NCBI RefSeq assembly: GCF_033153115.1
Contig: NW_026889774.1
Span: forward strand, 12,772,001 to 12,836,000
Source: Saccostrea echinata
Lineage: Eukaryota
Direction: 5' to 3'
DNA length: 64,000 bases
This document shows, piece after piece, positions 8,704-63,357 of this stretch (positions are counted from its first letter, which is position 1; each line of letters begins with the position of its first letter). The notes below the pieces were generated by a model. The model searched no databases. It saw only the letters and a program-made list of their open reading frames with translations, and was not told where the DNA came from. Position numbers and translations under genes: made by a program.

Positions 8704-9561
8704 CTAGCGATGTGTATGAACCAGTGACGACACTCTTGGTATATGTGGCAGAACAAGTCTATTGGCCTGAGGATCTGGTTCATGTTCACTGACTGCTCGT
8801 CTGCTGCGTGTACGCACGACTTTATCCACGTGATAACATCGCTTACAGTTCCAATGTTTGTCTTCCCCTGGGATCGCGTACATGAGCTTTTCTGCTGTCG
8901 TGTGTCCCGTCGGATCCGAGCGACTGGTGAAATCGCCATCCCTGGCGTCAAAGTCATCACTCTTACGAAAATTGTTTCTTTGCGGAAAGAAAGACGGCTT
9001 GAATAGGGCCGATAATGAAATTTCTGGTTCATCTTGCTTCTGTTCTTCCCGTTTTTTGGCACCAAACACAGGCTCCTTTTTTTCAGGACCCTGCTGTGTT
9101 GGGTACTGTACACCCCACTTTTCAACAAAATAATCCCGCACCTTTTCCGACATTTTATCCGTACCAAGAATCAAGCCTTTCTCCTTGCTATGCTTCATGA
9201 CACTGTCTAGGTGCTTTTTCTTGCGTATTTTAGGATGTCTCTCGGCGAGAAAAGAATCCATGTCTTTGTTGAGGGATTGGATGGACTTCCCTCCGTAATG
9301 CCCATATAGATTTCTATCCTTAGACGCCGCCGTATCTTCCCGCTTCAGCTCCAGACATTTTTGGAGGATCTTTTTCTGCGTCACCGCCTTCCTGACGGCG
9401 ACACTGGAGCGTTCCTGTCGGGAAATGTTGTACTGGAGCTCTTTCTTGATGTAGGCGTTGTAGAAGTCGTGTTGGTTTCTTGCCACATCGTTCATCACGC
9501 AAAGAAACTTTCGATGATTATCCTCCTGTTTCCTAACGTTTATTAACCGTCCCATAAACAT
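8704..9561 (-). CDS. Intronless uncharacterised basic protein, 285 aa from the first ATG
   Basis: 858-nt open frame, visibly richer in GC and CpG than its flanks, with non-repetitive protein-like composition. AATAAA on the minus strand at 8203-8208. No family recognised. Confidence 0.7.
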   Translation of the reverse strand: MFMGRLINVRKQEDNHRKFLCVMNDVARNQHDFYNAYIKKELQYNISRQERSSVAVRKAVTQKKILQKCLELKREDTAASKDRNLYGHYGGKSIQSLNKDMDSFLAERHPKIRKKKHLDSVMKHSKEKGLILGTDKMSEKVRDYFVEKWGVQYPTQQGPEKKEPVFGAKKREEQKQDEPEISLSALFKPSFFPQRNNFRKSDDFDARDGDFTSRSDPTGHTTAEKLMYAIPGEDKHWNCKRCYHVDKVVRTRSRRAVSEHEPDPQANRLVLPHIPRVSSLVHTHR

Positions 9562-10686
9562 CGTCAACAACTTTTCACTTCGTCAAATCATGTCTTCTTG
9601 ACCAAATCCACAAAATAACATTTGCCTTCAACATATTAACTCCATTCATTTGACCGAGTTACTAGTAAATAATACAAGATGCTTGTAAACATGTAACAGG
9701 GTATTCATAGTCCGTGCGCCTGTGTGATATAGTACACAAGATTATTTACTGTGGTGTATCAATAAAAATGTCTCCATAACTATTGTCTTAATTGTTCTTT
9801 AACGATCAAATGGCATAATCTTATTGTTAATCGGGATTCTGGACCAAATAACCAATTTGATGTAATCATTTCAGTTTATCTGCTTGATAATTCAGCATTT
9901 AGTACAAAAACATTTACGATTCTGGAGCTATCGCGCATTCTCAAACCAAGCGCGCACAATCATTGTTCTTGAAAGGCTCATGTTTCAATTAAAAAATATC
10001 TGCTACAAGATTTTATTGTCTTGCAGTCGATGTAATCATGCAAGAAGTTTGCTCTATGCAAATGATTTGGGATTTAAATCTGTTTTATCATTTATCACAG
10101 CAGTTGAATGGTCTTTTTTGTTTATCTGGTAGCTTCAACACTCCATATATAGCTGTCAGCAAGACATTCATAGAAGAGACCCCATCCGGCTTCAAACAGT
10201 CAATTTTTGTACAAATAAAAACTAACGGGGTTTCATCCAACTAATCACAATATCCCCTCTTTAAATAGAGCATGATATTGAACAATATAGGACACTAGTG
10301 ACTCGGCACATGTATGAAAAGGCATAAAATTATTTGCACGTAGTCTAGGTAGAAACCTCCTGTTTGAATTTTGCACGACATTGGCCAGAAAATTGCACAG
10401 CATTTAAGATAAATCTTGATTGAGAATTCCACGTAATACCGTATGTTTGATACTCATAATTTCTGTCAATTTTGCAAGTTAATTTATAGGTGATATTCAG
10501 TGTTTTTAAATGGATCAATAACAAGCGATTGTGAGATTGAAAATTAAAAACATGGATTAAACAACAATCTGAAAAAACTTTGACAGTTTTAGTCTCTGTC
10601 AGGATGATTTATTTACCTTAGCTATCGTATAACAGGCTAGGGGCTAGGAAGTAAGTCATTCTCTGTTTTCTTAATCATTTTGAGTC

Positions 10687-10863: not shown

Positions 10864-10988
10864 ACTGAGACAAATTGCCATTCATTGGCTTGTAAGGCAT
10901 TGCAAAGTCAAGAGAGTGAAGGGGGGGGGGGGTTCTTGTTAAGCATTTTAAGAGGAATCCAGTTATTTTTACCTTTTAAGAAACAAAA

Positions 10989-11953
10989 TTTAACAGGAGA
11001 GGAGAACAGGAGACCCATGGGTCACAACGCTCACCTGAGTAACGTTGACCCTGCTATTCTTCACCAGATTTCCCCCTTGTAATACGTATTGTGGCCCCAC
11101 CCTACCCCTGAGGGCCAGGATTTGAACAATTTAGAATCTTCACTATCCTAGGTGGCTTCCATGTAAGTTTCAGCGTTTCTGGCCCAGTGGTTCTTGAGAT
11201 TTTAAAAGATTTTTCCTATATATTTCAATGTAAAACTTTGATTCCCCGTTGTGACCCCACCCCACATGATTGGTCATGATTTGAACAATTTAGAATCTAC
11301 ACTACCCCAGGATGCTTCCATGTAAGTGTCAGCTTTTCTGGCCCAGTGGTTCTTGAGAAGATTTTTTTAACGACCCCACCCTATTTATGTCTTTTCTTGA
11401 TTATCTCCCCTTGTAAGGGGGCTTTGCCCTTCATTTTAACAATTTAAACTCCCCTTTACCCAAGGATGCTTTTTACTAACTTTGGTCAAAATTTACCCAG
11501 TGGTTTTTGAGAAGTTTAAAATGTGAAAAGTTAACAGATGGATAGACAGATGGACGGACAGACGACGGACAACAGGTGATCAGAAAAGCTCACTTTAGCT
11601 CAGGTGAGCTAAAAATGCAACGGACCAGACCGGGATTCGAACATGGACCCCCTGAATCTCCAGTCAGGTGCTTTACGAACTATCTGGCCACCGGCGATCA
11701 AACCGGTTTGAAAGCCACATTCCTCCCTTCTTAAAGGTATTTGCCACCCACCCCTACCCCCCCAACCCCGAAAACACCGACCCAGGTTCTTTCCTGGCAG
11801 GTTTTTCACCTGTCACTTCTAGGGCATGGCGCGGCACCAAATGTAACAGGAGAGGAGAAATATGCAACGGACCAGACCGGGATTCGAACCTGGGCCCCCT
11901 GAATCTCCAGTCAGGTGCTCCATCACATCTGATCGAACCGTCTTACCGCCACA
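10989..11953 (-). mobile_element. Miniature non-autonomous LTR retrotransposon (TRIM) with tRNA-derived LTRs, interrupted by a Helentron-type insertion
   Basis: Minus strand: 5' LTR TGTGGC...TGTTACA (11953-11842), 2-nt spacer, PBS TGGTGCCG (11839-11832), short internal region, PPT AAGAAGGGAGGAA (11732-11720), 3' LTR TGTGGC... (11719 to about 11614, resuming at about 11005-10989). AAAA on both flanks. Both LTRs contain the B box GTTCGAATCC. Confidence 0.8.
11006..11613 (-). mobile_element. Non-autonomous Helentron-type (pearl/CvA-like) element
   Basis: Subterminal inverted repeat gctcacctgag (11029) / ctcaggtgagc (11599), core repeats of about 160 bp, a GACA/GACG microsatellite at 11535-11570, and insertion into an A-run of the TRIM LTR. 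Confidence 0.8.
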
Positions 11954-13355
11954 AAAACATATGTGAACTAAAACTTACACTTGTTCGAAACAGAACGGAT
12001 ACTGATAAAATCATCTCAGATCAAGTAAAAAAAAATTCTACTTGTGTAAAGATACAAGGGGAATAACTTTTCCTACTGAAAAAAAAATAACACATTAGGA
12101 TAATTCACAGTACTTTATGTGATGAATCCAATTCACAAATAACTTATGATCTAAGTGAAACTTACAATCATTTGCAACAAAATAAAATCAAATCTGCAGA
12201 AAATAAATACAACAGCATTTCAATGTGTTATATGATAATTTTATAGAAGGAATGCTCTATTGGGGGGGGGGGTTACTTTACAGACATCTGAGGGATCAAT
12301 ACATGTATAAAGAAAAGTACTGGAAGTGTTATTTTAATTTACAAAGAATTGATTTCTGTTTTATTTTTATTAATTCAAGAATGTATCCAAGATAAAGGGA
12401 AGTAATAGGTTGCAGTCTTGAGTATCAAATAATCTAAATGCTGAAAGATCATATTACTTAAAATAAATGTGAAAATGTTTACAACATGTCCAGGATGATA
12501 GTGTCTGCATAATAACTTCTGAAATCACACATCATTAATATGCAACATAAAAACTACATTGATTAAAATATGCCCAATGCAGAACAATTGCATTGTAGTC
12601 CTGGTAAAATTCATTCCTGTGACATTATGCCATTAAAGACACAGATGTACACATGTAAATATATTAATGTACAAATTACACATATTTCAATATTTTGTTA
12701 TACATACATAATAAATAATTATCTCAGGTAAATCACATTACTAAGTCTCCTATCACAAGTGTGGCCAGCACTTTGTTCCACATCCACTGTACACTTCTCT
12801 GTCATTTACATGTTTTGTCAAAGAAATGAAACAAAAACAACTCAACAAAAAGAAATCTATTCTAAAACTGCAAAATACCTCCAATCCCCAGTCTTATGAG
12901 CTCAACTTTCACGCTAACTTTTACAACTATAATAGTTTTCTTATGCCCATAATTGTTAAATTTTATTTTGTACATTTAGAGCACATCATCAATAATACAA
13001 AGTCCTACAATAGTGGACTAACACAGTGCCAATTTACCATCACAAATCTCGTTCACACAGTTTCCTTACAGTCAGAATGGAAAGTGACATTCATAACCAA
13101 CATAATTAAATCTAATTTGATGAGACCTTTGTCCCTCAACAAAAGGAAGTGGGAGAAAATCTACCCCCAATGGATCATGAAAGAATATGATCAAAGAATG
13201 TCAGATGATACAATGAAAATTTACAAGAATTCTACAATGAAGTAAAGCTGTAACCACTAGAGTAGTTAGACCTGAAAAATGCATTCATTTACAGCATTGG
13301 TTAACTAAACCTTTACCATGACAACAGAACACACATGTATGATGACCAAACTTGA

Positions 13356-45940: not shown

Positions 45941-46904
45941 TGCATAATTACAGGGACATCAGTGCTGTAAAAACAAGCCTTGTCTAGTCTACCCATAATA
46001 TACAACACCTAAGAGCTTCATTGTGTTGGGAAGGGATAATTAAGTTAATGTGCATTATATTAAAGACAAAGAAATGTTATGAGGGTTTAAAATGGTGTTG
46101 TTTGGAACTACAGAAAAAATCAATTTGTGAAAAAGATAACCTGACAGACTGTTTAAATGTCAAGATTTGATTAAAAACTGATGTAAGGGATTAATATACA
46201 TAGTGGTGTGTTTGACATCTTTATTCAACTTTTTACTTTCCAATGTCTTCATGTGTTCAAAGCATGAAATAGTGCTTTAGTGGGTAGATATGTGTAAACA
46301 TGAGGGTGTGTGAACATGCTTGTTTTAATGAATGACAAGTGAAATGGTATACTGTGCCTTTAATTTTGTTTTCATCAGTTAGTCTGATCTGTTGAGGTTG
46401 TGTGTAACACTGGGTTTAATTATCAATTAAATCATGCCCTGTCATTATGTGAGTATACGGTAGTAAACTACAATAAGAGATTGGAGTAATTACTGAATTG
46501 TATGGACCTATGAACTTTTTAGTTAGTGTTATGCATAAGGATGTGTATTTATTAGATGAAAAGAATATACATGTATGTATGAATGCTTGATGTGTGTTTG
46601 TGTGTATGTGTCTTTATACATTTCACTTCATGACTTGTTGAATATACATTGAATGTAATGAATTTGTTATGATTGGATTAAACTAATTCTACAATATTCT
46701 GGAATTAAATTATTTTTTATGGATTCAGATTTATCTGGGTATTGCCATATAGTTACATCTTGTCAAGTTATTTTGCAACCATTTCCTATCTATTAAAATG
46801 CTTTACACCCCCTATCTGCTACCTCCATTCCCCACCAGTGGAAATGCAAGGAATTTCAAAGGTTCTGTAGAATAGGTGTTGGAACATCATATTGTGGTAG
46901 TATG

Positions 46905-47040
46905 TATGTTGGCTTCCGTAACCATAACTCACTGGTTAGAGCACTTGACTAGTGATACAAGGTCCCTGGTTTGATTCCCAGCCCAGCCATAGATTTTCTT
47001 TATGCATTCCTTCCTCCTTACTAAATTTGGTGGCCAGTGG
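46905..47040 (+). mobile_element. Decayed tRNA-like LTR plus PBS (relative of the TRIM at 10989-11953)
   Basis: taactcactggttagagcacttgactagtgat...ggtttgattccc (A/B-box-like), then a pyrimidine tract and aatttggtgg. Confidence 0.45.
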
Positions 47041-48343
47041 GAGGGGGGGTGGGGGTTGTTCAGGTTATTAAATTAAAAAGTCCTGGCGGGGCTCATGAAC
47101 TTGTGTCTTTGAAGTCAATATCCTTATCTCTCCATTCCGTAAAAACAATGGGCCCTGGCCCCTTCAAGGCCACAACTCCATTACTTTTAAGGAATGGATA
47201 GGTATTCAGACATCAACCTATCCTTAATCAGCCCTATCTGAGCTTAAACCTAATAACCCCTTCCAGATCCCATCCTCACAATGTCAAGGTTTTGTAATTT
47301 CGGAACTCCACACAAACCCTTGACATAAGTCACTTTTAAAAGTTGTGGTTACACATGACGTAATGGATAATTATAAACTAACCAATGAGAATGTATTTTT
47401 CAAATCCATCATTGCCAAATGCAGGAGGATAAAACGTACGCTCAACTAGGACCTCGGGTCACCCGCAAATAGTTCGTCATTTTGCGTAGTAATAAAACAT
47501 TATATGAACTCTTCAGGTATTAAAGGCACAAAAGTAAATTCATCTGTATCAATATGGTGACCTCAGGTCACCCTATATTTTGATTGAATTTTATTAAAAA
47601 AAAGTTTTCTCTGTCTTACTCCAATACAATTATATTAATAAAATTATATAGATCTTTCTAATAGATTAACAGAGACGTGAAGGTATGGTTTTAAATACTA
47701 AAACATGACAACAAGTTGATGTCATAATTAAGGCTCGGTGTCGGACGTTCCCCCCCCCCCCCCTTCACAAATGTTTCACTGGTTAACTTTATCAAACAAT
47801 ACATGTATTATTATCAGCAGTTTGAGAACCAATGTCTTTGTTACTGTGTTAAAAATTAACACACAGGGAAATTGAGACTTTTTCTTCATTCGTTCATCAG
47901 TCATAGACCTAAAGTGTTCAATTTAGGTCAATGGTTCAGAATTATCATCAGTCATCTACGATACTTAACTCTGCTTAATCTATAATTTATCCTATCTTAC
48001 ATCTGTTCCTATAGAAAAAGGAAAATCCACAGACTTTAAAAACTTTAAATGAGAAAAAAATTAAGTATAGATTTAGTTTTAATGTCCTGAATTTGTTCTC
48101 AAATTAACTGATTTTCAACTACAAATTCAAATAAAAAGGTTGAGATACCAAACAGAGATTGATCTCAAAAATCCTATTAACAAAGGAATTTGAAAACAGA
48201 GGATAAAACACAGATTCCTAAATTCCTGAGATAGGATCAGATGCATGAGAGGGATCATCCCTGGTCACATCAAATTTATTGTCACAAGCCTGCTTTGAGC
48301 AATATCTTGGATATGGAATGATAAAATAATGTGTCATATCAAT

Positions 48344-50163
48344 TCGAGACCGGAGGTCATCAGGTATTGTATATCAATAAGGAGACAAGAGTGTGCAAAA
48401 CAGTCACCAGATACCACCAATGTGAAGACTAGTGGTAAACTAATGTTTCATATCAAAACGGAGACTAGAGGTCACCTTATATTGTACATCAATAGGGAGA
48501 CCAGAGGTCACCTTCTATTGCACATCAAAACGGAGACCAGAGACCACCTTATATTGTACATCAATAGAGAGACCAGAGGTCACCTTTTATAGTACATCAA
48601 TAGGGAGACCAGTGGTAACCTTATATTATGCATAATTAGGGAGACCAGAGGTAACCTTCTATTGCACATCAAAACGGAGACCAGAGGCCATCATATATTG
48701 TACATCAATACGGAAACAATAAGACACCCTATATTGTACATAATTAGGGAGACCAGAGGTTACCTTATAATGTACATCAATACGGAGATCAAAGGACTCC
48801 TTATATTGTACATCAATAGGGAGACCAGTATTCAACTTATAGTTTACATTATTAGGGAGACCAGAGATCACCATTTATTGTATATCAGTTGGGAGACCAG
48901 GGGTCACCTTATATTGTACATAATTAGGGAGACCAAAGATCACCTTATATTGTATATTTTACATCAATAGGGAGACCAGAGGTCACCTTATATTATACAT
49001 CAATAGGGAGACCAGAGGTAACTTATTATGTACATCAATAGGGAGACCAGAGGACACCTTATATTGTACAGAATTAGGGAGACCAGAGGTCACTTATTTT
49101 GTACATCAATAGGGAAACCAGATGTAACTCATTTTGAACATCAATAGGGAGACCAGTGGTCACTTTATATATTACATAATTAGGGAGACCAAAGATCACC
49201 TTATATTGTATATCAATAGGGAGACCAGAGGTTACCTTATATTGTACATCAATAGGGAGACCAGAGGTTACCTTATATTGTATATCAATAGGGTGACCAG
49301 AGGTCACTTATTTTGTACATCAATAGGGAGACCATAGGACACCGTATATTGTAAATAATAAGGAGACCAAAGGTTACCTAATATTGTTCATCAATTGGAA
49401 GACCAGAGGTCACCATATATTGTACATAATAAGGGAGACCAGAGGTCACCTTATATTGTACATAATAAGAGAGACCAGAGGTCACCTTATATTGTATATC
49501 AATAGGGAGACAAGAGGTCACCTTATATTGTATATTGTACATCAAGAGGGAGACAAGAGGTCACATTATATACATCAATAAGGAGACTAGAGTTTACCTT
49601 ATATTGTACATCAATAGGGAGACAAGAGGTCACTTATTTTGTACATCAATAGGGAGACCAGAGGTCACCTTATATTGTACATAATTAGGGGGACCAGAGG
49701 TCACCTTATATTGTACATTAATAGGGAGACCAGAGGACACTGTATATTGTACATAATTAGGGAGACCAGAGGCCGGCCTGTTCAACAGCGCAAACGTTTG
49801 CGAGTGCTCGCCAACATTTCTGTTGAAAGAATAAGGAATTTAGGTGAGCGCTCGCCGACATTTGCTTTGTTGAACAGGCCTCTGAGGTAACTTATTTTGT
49901 ACATCAATAGGGAGACCAGAGGTCACCTTATAATGTACATAATTAGGGGGACCAGAGGTCACCTTATATTGTACATCAATAGGGAGACCAGAGGACACTG
50001 TATATTGTACATAATTAGGGAGACCAGAGGTCAACTTATATTGTACATCAATAGGGAGACCAGTTGACACCTTATTTTGTACATAATTAGGGAGACCAGA
50101 GATCACCTAATATTGTATATTGTACATGAATAGGGAGACAAGAGATTACTTTATATTGAACAT
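48344..50163 (+). repeat. 36-bp satellite array, left arm (roughly 45-50 monomers)
   Basis: Monomer agggagaccagaggtcaccttatattgtacatcaat. It produces the spurious RETRGHLILYIN ORFs. Confidence 0.95.
49770..49881. mobile_element. Small palindromic MITE inserted in the satellite (PIF/Harbinger-like)
   Basis: TIR ggcctgttcaaca / tgttgaacaggcc, with CAG / CTG (CWG) flanks, splitting one monomer gagaccag|aggtaac. Confidence 0.75.
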
Positions 50164-50216
50164 CTTGTTTCCCTATTAATGTACTTTATAAGTTGATCTC
50201 TGGTCTCCATAATGAT

Positions 50217-50630
50217 ATCTCTCAGTTGATACAATACGGAAGAGCATGTTCTACGTATGAACAATTTTTAAAACAAAGTAAGTTATTGACAAAGAAGTTG
50301 ATGAAGCAAGAATATCAGTAGTCTCGTTTAAAGTTATCATTTCGTAAGTTCTATGGTCGATACAATGACCTTGTTGGCAATTAAGTCAAATGCTGACTGA
50401 CTTTTTTCAAACTGATTGTTAGCCCATTATTCACACACTGAGTTGTCCACGGATTTTTCCGTTTTTTTCCCGAACATGATAAGGAGCACACGGCGGGTGT
50501 GACCGGTCGGCATGGGATGCTCACTCCTCCATGGCACCTGATCCCACCTCTGTTGTTTGCTCCGCTCCTATTTTGTAATGTTTAATGGACTTTTGAGCTC
50601 GAATACTGTTCGTTATCTCCACATATTTCA
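50217..50630 (+). mobile_element. 5'-truncated Penelope-like retroelement fragment (RT thumb plus 3' terminal region)
   Basis: 50217-50384 translates ISQLIQYGRACSTYEQFLKQSKLLTKKLMKQEYQ*SRLKLSFRKFYGRYNDLVGN*, resembling the PLE RT thumb. Decayed reverse copies of the 3' region lie near 48150-48270 and 45100-45170. Confidence 0.7.
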
Positions 50631-50854
50631 TAATCTTTATTTGTGTTATGATATAAAAGAACTTTTTCAATCTTTGTTTATGTAAGATATGAGAAATTAT
50701 GGAGTGAAAGAAGTAATTTTTTCTTCACATGATTATATGTTCAGAAGCTTATTTCCATAATTATTGCCTTTATTTTGTTTTTGAGTTGTCTTTTAGTTAA
50801 ACAGAGTCTAGAATCATAGAAGCCTGATCTCTGCATCCATATAAACTTTTTGTG

Positions 50855-53800
50855 ATACCTGGTCTCCCTATAACACTGTAATGTACAATATATGGAGACC
50901 TCTGGTCTCCGTATTCATTCACAACGTTACGTGACCTCTGCATTGTCTCCCTAATTATGTTTTATATAAGAGGACCTCTGGTCTTGGCATTTGTATAAAC
51001 TCTATGTAACCTCTGGTCTCTCTAATGATCAACATAAGGTAACCTTTGATCTCCACAATGAAGTACAACAAAAGCCTAATGATATACAACATAAGGTGAC
51101 CTCTGGTCTCCGTATCGATGTACAATATTAGGTGACCTTTGATTTCCCTATCAATGTAAAATATAAGGTGACCTCTGGTCTCCCTATTGATGTACAATTT
51201 AAAGTGACCTTTGGAATCCCTTATGATGTACACTATAAGGTGTCCTCTGGTCTCTCTACTAATGTACAATATAAGGTGACCTCTAGTCTCCCTATTGATG
51301 TACAATATAAGGTGACCCCTGGTCTCCCTATTGATGTACAATATTAGGTGACCTTTGATTTCCCTATTAATGTAAAATATAAGGTGACTTCTGGTCTCCC
51401 AAGGATGTACAATATAAGGGGACCTCTGGTCACCCTAATGAAGTACACCATATGGGGACCTCTGGTCTCCATATTCATATTATACACAGCCTTATGTGAT
51501 CAGTGGTCTGCAAATGATGAACAATATAAGATGTTCTCTGGTCTTCATATTCATACACAACTTAATGTGACCTCTGGTCTCTTAATAATGTTCACCATAA
51601 GATGACCTCTGGTCACCGTATTCATTAACACTTTTATATAAAATATGGTCTCCCCAGTGATTAACAAAATAAGGGGACCCCAGGTCTCCGCATTCATGTA
51701 CAATATAATGTGACCTCTGGTCTCCCAACTAATGTACAATATAAGGTGACTTCTGGTCTCCCTATTGATGTAAAATAGAAGATGTCCTCTGGTTTCAATA
51801 TTGATATACAATATAAGGTGTCCTCTGGTCTCCCAACTAATGATGATATAAGGGGACCTTTGGTCTCCCTATTGATGTACAATATAACTGATCTCTGGTT
51901 TCCCTATTGCTTTACAATATAAGGTGTCTTCTGGTCTCCCTACTGATGTAGGATATAAGGGACCTGTGGTCTCCCTACTAATGTACAATATAAGGTGACC
52001 TCTGGTCTCCCTATTGATGTCAAATATAAGGTGTCCTCTGGTTTCCCTACTGATGTACAATATAAGGTGTCCTCTGGTCTCCCTACTGATGTAGGATATA
52101 AGGGGACCTTTGGTCTCCCTATTGATGCACAATATAAGTGATCTCTGGTTTCCCTATTGATGTACAATATAAGGTGTCTTCTGGTCTCCCTACTGATGTA
52201 GGATATATTGGGACCTCTGGTCTCCCTAATGATGTACAATAGAAGGTGTCCTCTGGTCTCCCTAGAGATGTAGGATATAAGGGGATCTCTGGTCTCCCTA
52301 ATGATGTAGGATATAAGGGGACCTTTGGTGTTCCTATTGATGTACAATATAAGGGGACCTCTGCTCTCCCTATTGATGTACAAAATAAGTTACCCCTGGT
52401 CTCCATAATTATGTACAATATACAGTGTCCTCTGGTCTCCCTATTGATGTACAATATAAGGTGACCTCTGGTCCCCCTAATTATGTACAATATAAGGTGT
52501 CCTCTGGTCTCCCTATCGATGTACAAAATAAGTTACCTCTGGTCTCCCTAATTCTTTACAATATAAGGTGTCCTCTTGTCTCCGTATTTATGTACAATAT
52601 AAGGTGGCCTTTAGTCTCCCTATTGATGTACAAAATAAGTGACCTCTTGTCTCCCTATTGATGTACAATATAAGGTGACCTCTGGTCTCCCTATTGATGT
52701 ACAATATAAGGGGACCTCTGGTCACCCTAATGAAGTACACCATATGGGGACCTCTGGTCTCCGTATTCATATTATACACAACCTTATGTGAGCAGTGGTC
52801 TGCAAATGATGAACAATATAGGGTGACCTCTGGTCTTCATATTCATACACAACTTTATGTGACCTCTGGTCTCTTGAATAATGTACAACATAAGATGCGA
52901 TCTGGTCTCCGTATTTATTAACACTTTTATATGAAATATGGTCACCCCAATGATTAATAAAATAAGGGGACCCCAGGTCTCCGTATTCATGTACAATATA
53001 ATGTGACTTCTGGTCTCTCTACTAATGTACAATATAAGGTGACCTCTGGTCTCCCTATTGATGTACAATATAAGAGATCTCTGATCTCCCTTTTGATGTA
53101 CAATATAAGGTGTCTTCTGGTCTCCTTATGGATGTAGGATATAAGGGGACCTCTGGTCTCCCTGTTGATGTAGGATATAGGGGACCTCTGGTCTCCCTAT
53201 TGATGTAATATATAAAGTGTCCTCTGATCTCCCTACTGATGTAGGGTATAAGGGGACCTTTGGTCTCCCTGTTGATGTACAAATGATCACTGGTTTCCCT
53301 ATTGATGTACAATACAAGGTGCCCTCTGGTCTCCCTAAAGATGTAGGATATGAGGGGATCTTTGGTCTCCCTTTTGATGTACAATATAAATTATAAGAGA
53401 TCTCTGGTCTCCCTTTTGATGTACAATATAAGGTGTCTTCTGGTCTCCTTATGGATGTAGGATATAAGGGGACCTCTGGTCTCCCTGTTGATGTAGAATA
53501 TAGGGGACCTCTGGTCTCCCTATTGATGTAATATATAAAGTGTCCTCTGGTCTCCCTACTGATGTAGGGTATAAGGGGACCTTTGGTCTCCCTGTTGATG
53601 TACAAATGATCCCTGGTTTCCCTCTTGATGTACAATACAGGGTGCCCTCTGGTCTCCCTAAAGATGTAGGATATGAGGGGACATCTGGTCTCCCTATTAA
53701 TATTTGATATAAGGTGACCTCTGGTCCCCCTATTTATGTACAATATAAGGTGTCCTCTGGTCTCCCTATAGATGTAGGATATAAGGGGACCACCTCTGGT

Positions 53801-53925
53801 CTCCCTATAGATGTAGGGTATAAGGGGACCTCTTGTCTTTCTTTTGATGTACAATACAATGTGATCTTTGGTCCTCCTAATGATGTACAATATAAGGGGA
53901 CCTATGGTCTCCCTATTCATATAAA
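50855..53925 (-). repeat. 36-bp satellite array, right arm, inverted orientation (roughly 80-85 monomers)
   Basis: Monomer attgatgtacaatataaggtgacctctggtctccct on the plus strand. The orientation switch occurs at about 50164. Confidence 0.95.
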
Positions 53926-62458: not shown

Positions 62459-63357
62459 AAACCAGAGGTCTCTGTCGAGACTGTAGCTCTACTGGTTTGT
62501 ACTTGTAACAAGGGAAGAAAAAAGTAGCTTGACTTGGACTTGAAACTTTGCAACAACAATAAATAGAATGATTCTTGATTTAGTCTCTTTTTGTGGCGAG
62601 ATTGCAATCAAATTAAAACTGGGGGAGTAGCGTTTTAAAAGAATTTTACAGAAATTTCGATTTTAGTTACCATGGCAACATCATTCACCTTAATCAAAAA
62701 ACAAAAAAGACAGTTATGTACTAGTATCTCATTGTAGTCTACTTGTGTGCCAAGTTATTTTGAAATCAGACCAAAACTGTAGGAGGAGTAGCATTTTGAA
62801 TGTATTTCGAAGAAATTTCCAATTTTAGTAACCATGGAAACACCGTTCATTGAAATCGAAAACAACTACAGAGAAATATGTATCTTTATCTAGTCTACTT
62901 GTGTGCCAAGTAATGCTGAAATCAGACCAAAACTGTGGGAGGATAAGCATTTTGGAACCATTTCAAAGAAATTTCTATTTTTAGTAACCATGGCAACACC
63001 GCTCATCGAAATCAAAAACCGATAAAGAGAATTATGCATCTTAGTGTAGTCTATATATGTGCTTAGTGATATTGAAATCAGACTAAAACTGTTGGAGGAG
63101 TAGCATTTTGAGGGTATTTCACAGAAATTTCTATTTTTAGCAACCACGACAACACCGTTCATCAAAATCAAAAACCGATACACAGAATTATGTACCTTAG
63201 TGTAGTCTACTTGTCTGCCAAGTTATATTGAAACCAGACCAAAATTGTAGGAGGAGTAGCATTTTGAAGAATTGTTTGCAGACGGACAGACAGACGGACG
63301 GACGGAGGACACCTTACCATCGCATAAGCTCTTCTGGTCTCTGACCGGTAGAGCTAA
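62459..63357 (-). mobile_element. Non-autonomous Helentron-type (pearl/CvA-like) element with 156-bp core repeats
   Basis: Core repeat phase at 62735, 62891, 63047, 63203. GACG microsatellite at 63281-63306. Subterminal inverted repeat tagctctac / gtagagcta. Confidence 0.85.

What the first reader, a model, noticed from the sequence alone, without database searches (positions are those of the whole stretch)
10985..11957. Miniature LTR retrotransposon whose LTRs are tRNA-derived
Seen on the minus strand: a TG...CA LTR, PBS TGGTGCCG (complementary to the 3' end of tRNA-His), about 120 bp internal region, a PPT directly before the second LTR, and AAAA flanks. Each LTR holds a tRNA-like body (...AGCACCTGACTGGAGATTCAGGGGG...GTTCGAATCCCGG). 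Inference: a Pol III-driven TRIM analogous to the 5S-bearing Cassandra elements. It resembles the tRNA-bearing Ajax group reported from bivalves, so it may not be new, but it would easily be mis-annotated as tRNA pseudogenes or a SINE.
Basis: partly seen in the sequence, partly recalled or inferred. Interest (0 to 1): 0.7.

Follow-up and report, generated by a model that had tools for sequence, protein, structure and literature searches.

The report
Decayed Helenus tRNA-bearing mini-retrotransposon copy
This is a real but worn-out copy of Helenus, a tiny tRNA-carrying jumping gene already published from oysters; the one extra is that its RNA is predicted to fold its two ends together in a long stem that is kept between related families.

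Summary
The element is real: LTR (11953-11842), tRNA-His PBS, 122-bp inner part, PPT, second LTR split by a 606-bp HINE/Helentron, 4-bp TSD. Intact copies in this genome are about 96-97% identical (by eye) to Helenus-1_SaGl. Of 29 other loci, 20 have an exact 4-bp TSD; tandem arrays exist; no poly(A) tails. This copy is dead: both A boxes are damaged and the second LTR ends AA. Two additions: (1) a young Ty3/Gypsy family here shares the His PBS, 15 of 16 PPT-region bases, LTR ends and 4-bp TSD, so it is the likely helper; (2) PPT+U3 is complementary to the T arm-to-U5 stretch (about 34 bp, z about -4.5) in three of five Helenus families of this genome, with compensatory changes, which suggests an end-to-end RNA helix. 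Pol III transcription and the helix are untested. The scan noted Helenus-type LTRs before, in a flatworm.

The parts
11954..11957 (-). 4-bp target site duplication, 5' side (TTTT; AAAA on +)
11842..11953 (-). 5' LTR, 112 nt, TG...CA; lacks 10 nt at the U3/tRNA junction and 7 nt of the A box relative to intact copy L002; T run broken to TATTT
   Evidence: 104 matches, 8 mismatches, 3 gaps to L002
11869..11934 (-). tRNA-like body in 5' LTR (D arm/A box destroyed; B box at 11890-11880 intact)
   Evidence: Rfam 26 bits, below gathering; no cloverleaf predicted
11832..11839 (-). primer-binding site for tRNA-His (8 nt perfect, 11 of 18 here; 10 nt in most family copies)
   Evidence: compared with the genome's own tRNA-His genes plus CCA
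11720..11841 (-). non-coding inner part, 122 nt (family 98-105 nt; this copy has about 19 extra G-rich bases)
11720..11732 (-). polypurine tract abutting the 3' LTR
   Evidence: matches the PPT of a Gypsy family in the genome
11613..11719 (-). 3' LTR, first part (U3, tRNA-like body 11689-11622 with 5-nt A-box deletion, start of the T run)
11007..11612 (-). HINE (non-autonomous Helentron) inserted in the T5 run of the 3' LTR: subTIR at 11609-11599 and 11039-11029, GTCY microsatellite, three central repeats 154-159 bp apart, 3' palindrome, no TSD; ends uncertain by 2 T
   Evidence: (8762 candidates); anatomy as in PMC7492417 (passages)
10989..11006 (-). 3' LTR, last part (U5), ending AA instead of CA
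   Evidence: (D7)
10985..10988 (-). 4-bp target site duplication, 3' side

Best explanation
The stretch is an old, inactive copy of a Helenus-1_SaGl-type TRIM, a 363-bp non-coding LTR retrotransposon with a tRNA-like unit in each LTR, which is likely transcribed by Pol III and likely copied and inserted by a Ty3/Gypsy helper. Shown: structure, family, 4-bp TSDs, tRNA-His complementarity, decay of this copy, later HINE insertion. Inferred cycle for intact copies: TFIIIC binds the A and B boxes in the 5' LTR; Pol III starts at tRNA position 1 (LTR base 31), leaks through the T5 run behind the first tRNA body and stops at the T5 run of the 3' LTR, giving an RNA of about 316 nt with R = tRNA body plus trailer, U5 about 20 nt, U3 = 30 nt. 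The RNA is predicted to close into a rod in which PPT+U3 pairs with the T arm-to-U5 stretch of the 5' end, which would bring the two R regions together for strand transfer and unfold the 5' tRNA mimic. A Gypsy particle would package it; tRNA-His primes the minus strand, the PPT primes the plus strand, and integrase makes the 4-bp TSD. In this copy both A boxes were lost after insertion and a Helentron later landed in the 3' T run.
For: Family identity: supplement Data S1 of PMC10886601 against copy L002, by eye: LTR 126 of 130, inner part 99 of 103; Table S1 gives 129/103/361 bp and TSD 4, here 130/103/363. TSD: exact 4 bp in 20 of 29 loci, never 5 or 6; 18 of 21 non-redundant single units against 7 of 420 cross-locus pairs; two 3-LTR arrays also have outer 4-bp TSDs. 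A box present in 58 of 58 LTRs of the 29 loci, T run of 4-6 in all 58. Primer: PBS matches the genome's tRNA-His genes for 10 nt in most copies and for exactly 18 nt in a variant (L004/L020, L017), the length expected from copying a tRNA primer; L077 runs 27 nt into the tRNA. Helper: 7 of 30 examined loci with an 18-nt His PBS belong to one family with gag and PR-RT-RH-IN order; in 3 copies examined the LTRs differ at 2-7 of about 1200 bases, the PPT region matches Helenus at 15 of 16 bases, LTRs start TGT and end GTTACA as in Helenus, TSD 4 bp exact in 2 of 3 and with one mismatch in the third. Helix: (see full report).
Against: No transcript start, end or Pol III occupancy could be shown; RNA runs were contigs only, of uncertain species. 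The T5 run behind the first tRNA body should stop much Pol III transcription before the PBS, so read-through is assumed. At least three other LTR families in the genome also carry the 18-nt His PBS (L087 is a second Gypsy), so the helper is not proven. The helix is absent from two Lys-primed Helenus families (15 of 17 analysed loci). The cloverleaf of R is marginal (z -1.46; not the MFE once U5 is added, nor in family 2), which weakens the idea that the helix is needed to hide it. Identity to Helenus-1_SaGl was counted by eye, not computed.
Confidence: 0.9

Rival explanations
1. Two tRNA-derived SINEs or tRNA pseudogenes lying in tandem, with a chance PBS-like and purine-rich spacer.
For: ARAGORN and Rfam call the LTR cores tRNAs.
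Against: All 29 other loci have LTR-PBS-inner-PPT-LTR order; fixed 4-bp TSD in 20 of 29; no poly(A) tails in the flanks printed; 71 exact LTR-PBS junctions.
Confidence: 0.01
2. Same Helenus TRIM, but its genomic RNA comes mostly from Pol II read-through or host transcripts; the A/B boxes make only short tRNA-like RNAs that end at the T5 run.
For: T run of 4-6 directly behind the tRNA body in 58 of 58 LTRs; no start-site data; a chimeric LTR (L003) switches family somewhere between tRNA positions 7 and 33, which does not pin the start.
Against: A and B boxes are the best-kept parts across Helenus (PMC10886601 section 3.5); element size fits Pol III; Cassandra is reported to start and end inside its 5S units (PMC10886601, introduction passage).
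Confidence: 0.2
3. The PPT+U3 complementarity is a historical by-product (U3 arose from a duplicated acceptor/T-arm piece, kept in step by hairpin-driven gene conversion) and has no role in the RNA.
For: U3 resembles the 5' strands of acceptor and T stems, so part of the pairing follows from tRNA self-complementarity; two of five families lack it; only three lineages compared; covariation term only -2.26 kcal/mol; family 3 shows little preference for its own partner.
Against: The pairing runs 6 + 11-13 bp beyond the tRNA into trailer and U5/PPT; four double changes between families 1 and 2; own-family duplexes beat cross-family ones; in family 3 an A at position 64 breaks the T stem but pairs with U3.
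Confidence: 0.4

Closest known systems
Helenus-1_SaGl (Saccostrea glomerata) and Helenus-2C_CGi, Helenus group of TRIMp3, Kojima 2024 PMC10886601 (abstract, results, discussion 4.2, tables, supplement parts 5, 6, 10 and searches read)
   Same: LTR 130 vs 129, inner 103 vs 103, 4-bp TSD, tRNA-His PBS, same PPT, tRNA-like LTR; 96-97% identity by eye for intact copies
   Different: This copy is decayed and HINE-interrupted; family here has T5 rather than T4 behind the tRNA body; the paper's main text does not mention hairpins or inverted repeats (0 hits) and links the helper by PBS only
Ajax (same paper)
   Same: TRIM with a small-RNA-derived Pol III promoter in the LTR
   Different: 5S-derived, nemerteans only, 5-bp TSD, tRNA-Leu primer; not this element
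Cassandra (PMC7215508, passages)
   Same: Pol III-type TRIM, tandem arrays, predicted whole-element super-hairpin with PBS and PPT close together
   Different: 5S-derived, plants; there the two LTRs pair as wholes, here a defined PPT+U3 : T arm-U5 helix with compensatory changes
Ty1 CYC5/CYC3 genome cyclization (PMC7969010, passages)
   Same: Long-range pairing of the two ends of an LTR-retrotransposon RNA
   Different: Autonomous Copia element; different sequences and positions; no tRNA mimic involved
biv-TRIM (PMC6934838, passages)
   Same: Bivalve TRIM with PPT
   Different: 202-218-bp repeats, 77-80-bp inner part, no canonical PBS
Cg_HINE non-autonomous Helentrons (PMC7492417, passages)
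   Same: The 606-bp insert has subTIRs, inner inverted repeat, GTCY microsatellite, short array of about 160-bp repeats, 3' palindrome, oligo-T target, no TSD
   Different: Exact Cg_HINE family not assigned (no sequence comparison made)

Membership tests
Helenus (animal) | Two LTRs around a short non-coding inner part, 311-1263 bp in all | tested here: met
   130+103+130 bp in intact copies; window copy 112+122+125 without the insert
Helenus (animal) | tRNA-like sequence with A and B boxes in the LTR | tested here: met
   Family: A box in 58 of 58 LTRs, Rfam 56-63 bits for L002/L013. Window copy: B boxes kept, A boxes damaged
Helenus (animal) | PBS complementary to a tRNA 3' end directly after the 5' LTR | tested here: met
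   tRNA-His, 8 nt here, 10-18 nt in the family
Helenus (animal) | PPT before the 3' LTR | tested here: met
Helenus (animal) | 4-bp TSD | tested here: met
   20 of 29 loci exact; window TTTT/TTTT
Helenus (animal) | tRNA-like unit is not a working tRNA | tested here: met
   8-nt anticodon loop; ARAGORN gives no isotype for both main LTRs in 29 of 30 loci (L013, a point variant, is called Ser)
Helenus-1_SaGl family | High identity to the published consensus | tested here: met
   By eye, L002: 126 of 130 (LTR), 99 of 103 (inner); not computed
TRIMp3 | Transcription by RNA polymerase III | not testable with these tools
   RNA runs held only as contigs
Ajax | 5S-derived LTR, 5-bp TSD, tRNA-Leu PBS | tested here: not met
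   Rfam finds tRNA, not 5S; TSD 4 bp; PBS His
tRNA-derived SINE | Single head with poly(A)/repeat tail and variable TSD | tested here: not met

The most novel reading that the evidence does not exclude
A clade of bivalve Helenus solves the problem of carrying a tRNA mimic at both ends of its genome with a conserved RNA switch: PPT+U3 zips onto the T arm, acceptor strand, trailer, T run and U5 of the 5' end (about 34 bp), circularising the RNA for strand transfer and hiding the mimic from RNase P/Z, while short terminated transcripts fold as tRNA-like RNA. Together with the matching young Gypsy helper found here, this would be a 316-nt minimal model of Pol III-made LTR genome replication.
Probability: 0.35. 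Interest if true: 0.5.

Novelty: already known. Interest (0 to 1): 0.24.

Why it matters
As an element it is ordinary: a published family, and a dead copy of it. It matters for annotation, since ARAGORN calls both LTRs tRNAs at all 30 loci examined. The added points could be useful to specialists: a well-matched helper candidate (PBS, PPT, LTR ends, TSD) addresses how TRIMp3 elements are mobilised, and the end-to-end helix gives a testable answer to how an RNA with two tRNA-like ends avoids tRNA processing and completes strand transfer.

Tried and rejected
Ajax, SINE pair and biv-TRIM rejected (see membership). Expression: the look-up of sequencing runs gave 21 runs, none with half the words; four were laid, all as contigs, RNA status partly guessed, no piece spanning the element: no evidence on start, strand or level. 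My first idea, that the 5' end stays a cloverleaf and only the 3' LTR refolds, was not supported: in the full RNA the PPT+U3 pairs with the 5' end (more than 25 pairs in 21 of 29) and the 3' T stem has probability above 0.5 in only 5 of 29. MAFFT of whole LTRs misaligned U3 between families, so pairs were mapped from duplex folds and from an alignment of the inner-spanning stretch. One genome pattern was mis-specified and gave 1 match (corrected). Pfam gave nothing for three long frames elsewhere in the window. Literature; one search listed 15 of 24 papers with Helenus/TRIMp3 since 2024 and none of the listed titles is a structural follow-up; (SINE and RNase P/Z) listings showed nothing direct and were not read further. 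Supplement parts 1-4, 7-9 and 11 of PMC10886601, including Fig. S1 tRNA folds, were not read and could bear on the novelty of the helix. Repbase is not available here.

Full report
Observation. On the minus strand the window shows TTTT, a 112-nt LTR (11953-11842, TG...CA), a 122-nt inner part starting TTTGGTGCCG and ending in a 13-nt PPT, a second LTR (11719-10989) broken by an insertion, and TTTT. ARAGORN finds a tRNA-like body with a four-base anticodon in each LTR and nothing else in the window. The LTRs differ at 14 of 112 aligned bases with 3 gaps, K2P 0.137, against 0-11 mismatches in the 29 other loci. Rfam scores LTR1 at 26 bits, under the threshold of 29, and does not report LTR2; the four LTRs of intact copies L002 and L013 score 56-63. 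The window's tRNA bodies do not fold as cloverleaves; that of L002 does, with an 8-nt anticodon loop, though only marginally (z -1.46).

The family. A search of the own genome gave 1065 candidates, 40 scored, 30 fetched; these are best matches, not a random sample. All 29 loci besides the window have LTR-PBS-inner-PPT-LTR order with LTRs of about 130 and inner parts of 98-105 bp. Exact 4-bp TSDs flank 20 of 29, none has 5 or 6 bp. After dropping 2 duplicates and 6 array or chimera loci, 18 of 21 match, against 7 of 420 cross-locus pairs; two 3-LTR arrays have outer 4-bp TSDs as well. Exact patterns give 71 LTR-PBS junctions and 121 LTR 3' motifs, controls 0; these are lower bounds.

The primer. 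The genome has at least 8 near-identical tRNA-His genes. With CCA added, their 3' end is complementary to the PBS for 8 nt in the window copy, 10 nt in most copies, 14 in L015 and exactly 18 in a variant in L004/L020 and L017. An 18-nt PBS is what copying of a tRNA primer up to its modified A58 leaves (recalled knowledge). L077 carries 27 nt of the tRNA and L017 a nearly whole tRNA-His between inverted LTRs.

What it is. PMC10886601 defines Helenus as TRIMs with tRNA-like LTRs, 4-bp TSDs in animals and 51 families in pteriomorph bivalves, and Ajax as 5S-bearing, nemertean, 5-bp TSD. Window motifs hit Helenus-1_SaGl and Helenus-2C_CGi in the supplement. By eye, copy L002 matches Helenus-1_SaGl at 126 of 130 LTR and 99 of 103 inner positions; sizes and TSD agree with Table S1; Fig. 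S2 lists it under tRNA-His with Gypsy-39_CGi. The host is therefore likely an ostreid oyster (inferred). The genome also holds families resembling Helenus-2, -3, -4 and -5_SaGl (by eye).

The insert. The 606-bp piece has 8762 first-look candidates in the genome. In the 11 other copies shown it begins in a T run with the same subterminal repeat, and in 10 of them ends with the inverted repeat, a palindrome and Ts; it has a GTCY microsatellite and three repeats 154-159 bp apart. This is the HINE anatomy with oligo-T targets and no TSD described in PMC7492417 (passages). It sits in the T run that would end a Pol III transcript.

The helper. A pattern for the 18-nt His PBS (excluding the Helenus variant) gave 72 matches; of 30 examined, 7 belong to one family whose LTR ends GGTTACA and whose PBS is followed by a long frame. 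It has a 446-codon gag-like frame and a 1307-codon frame with protease, RT, RNase H, integrase in Gypsy order. In three copies the LTRs differ at 2-7 of about 1200 bases, the bases before the 3' LTR match the Helenus PPT region at 15 of 16, the LTRs start TGT, and the TSD is 4 bp (exact in 2, one mismatch in 1). Other His-primed LTR families exist (L087 is another Gypsy, with a different LTR end), so this is the best candidate, not a proof.

The helix. Folding a whole LTR showed U3 pairing with the 3' half of the tRNA body. With U3 present the T stem falls below probability 0.2 in 38 of 48 family-1 and 25 of 30 family-2 LTRs; without U3 it is above 0.8 in 31 of 48 and 19 of 30. In the predicted read-through RNA the pairing extends: PPT+U3 binds the 5' T arm, acceptor strand, trailer, T run and U5. 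Of 27 distinct junctions, 18 family-1 have a median of -48.9 kcal/mol, z -4.5 (15 of 18 beat all 200 shuffles), 7 family-2 have -39.4, z -4.8 (7 of 7), and 2 mixed-family junctions have only about -29. U3 alone prefers its own family (medians -31.4 and -24.2 against -19.9 and -20.7). The window copy keeps a weakened form (-32.4, z -2.6). Among 30 Lys-primed loci, 12 could not be parsed and 1 was a duplicate; 2 of 17 (one short-U3 family) show the helix (z -4.4, -3.2) and 15 from two other families do not. Mapping pairs by position gives double changes between families 1 and 2 at tRNA positions 59, 68, 69 and in the trailer, and one with family 3 at 64, where the change breaks the T stem but keeps the U3 pair. 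RNAalifold on 10 copies of 3 families recovers the U5:PPT helix (11 pairs) and the acceptor:U3 helix (8 pairs, 2 with double changes), covariation term -2.26. By eye, the published consensuses Helenus-2C_CGi, -4_PiIm, -5_PiIm and -1_ArIr show the same complementarity with their own letters (not computed). Against a function: only three lineages were computed; part of the pairing follows from tRNA self-complementarity; family 3 shows little own-partner preference; the cloverleaf that would need hiding is itself weak once U5 is present and in family 2. Precedents exist in Cassandra's predicted super-hairpin (PMC7215508, passages) and Ty1 cyclization (PMC7969010, passages). The Helenus paper's main text has no hit for 'hairpin' or 'inverted'.

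Mechanism and verdict. Shown: a Helenus TRIM copy, His-primed, 4-bp TSD, decayed, with a later HINE insertion. Inferred: Pol III start at tRNA position 1 with leaky passage through the first T5 run, end-to-end folding, packaging and integration by the matching Gypsy family. RNA data could not test this. The finding is already known; the helper match and the helix are modest additions. Earlier notes of this scan report Helenus-type solo LTRs in a flatworm; the six notes for this genome do not concern this family.

Noticed in passing
window 16290-16570 (-): A second, much more decayed Helenus-1-like relic: PBS at about 16461, inner part, PPT at about 16381-16369, eroded 3' LTR.
   Followed up: partly
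window 46893-47110 (+): LTR plus tRNA-Ile-type PBS and part of the inner region resembling Helenus-5_SaGl by eye.
   Followed up: partly
L017:1403-1474 (G000:C37): A nearly whole tRNA-His (97% to the genes) wedged between two inverted LTRs inside a rearranged Helenus array; likely a primer tRNA copied in full during reverse transcription.
   Followed up: partly
L003:1714-1839 (-) and L102: Chimeric LTR with family-2 U3 and family-1 R/U5, switch inside the tRNA body; L102 is a mixed family-2/family-1 array. Fits template switching between co-packaged families.
   Followed up: partly
L023 and L029: Same flanks and same CGAG TSD on two contigs, one with two LTRs and one with three: array growth or shrinkage after insertion.
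   Followed up: no
inner part of families 1 and 2 (e.g. L002, L116): Two hairpins with changing stems: one with a 5-6 nt bulge behind the PBS, one with a G-rich loop before the PPT; possible packaging signals.
   Followed up: no
L083-L085 (G000:C5, C9): Young Ty3/Gypsy family with about 1.2-kb near-identical LTRs and a His PBS; weak SCAN/PNMA hits in the gag frame.
   Followed up: partly
window 8704-9582, 34387-35745, 35735-36997 (-): Long open frames, probably host exons, without Pfam hits; the latter two recall Sec16 by composition (recalled, untested).
   Followed up: no
window 48452-53917 and 62624-63268: Two long 36-bp minisatellite arrays in opposite orientation, and a 156-bp array of four units.
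   Followed up: no
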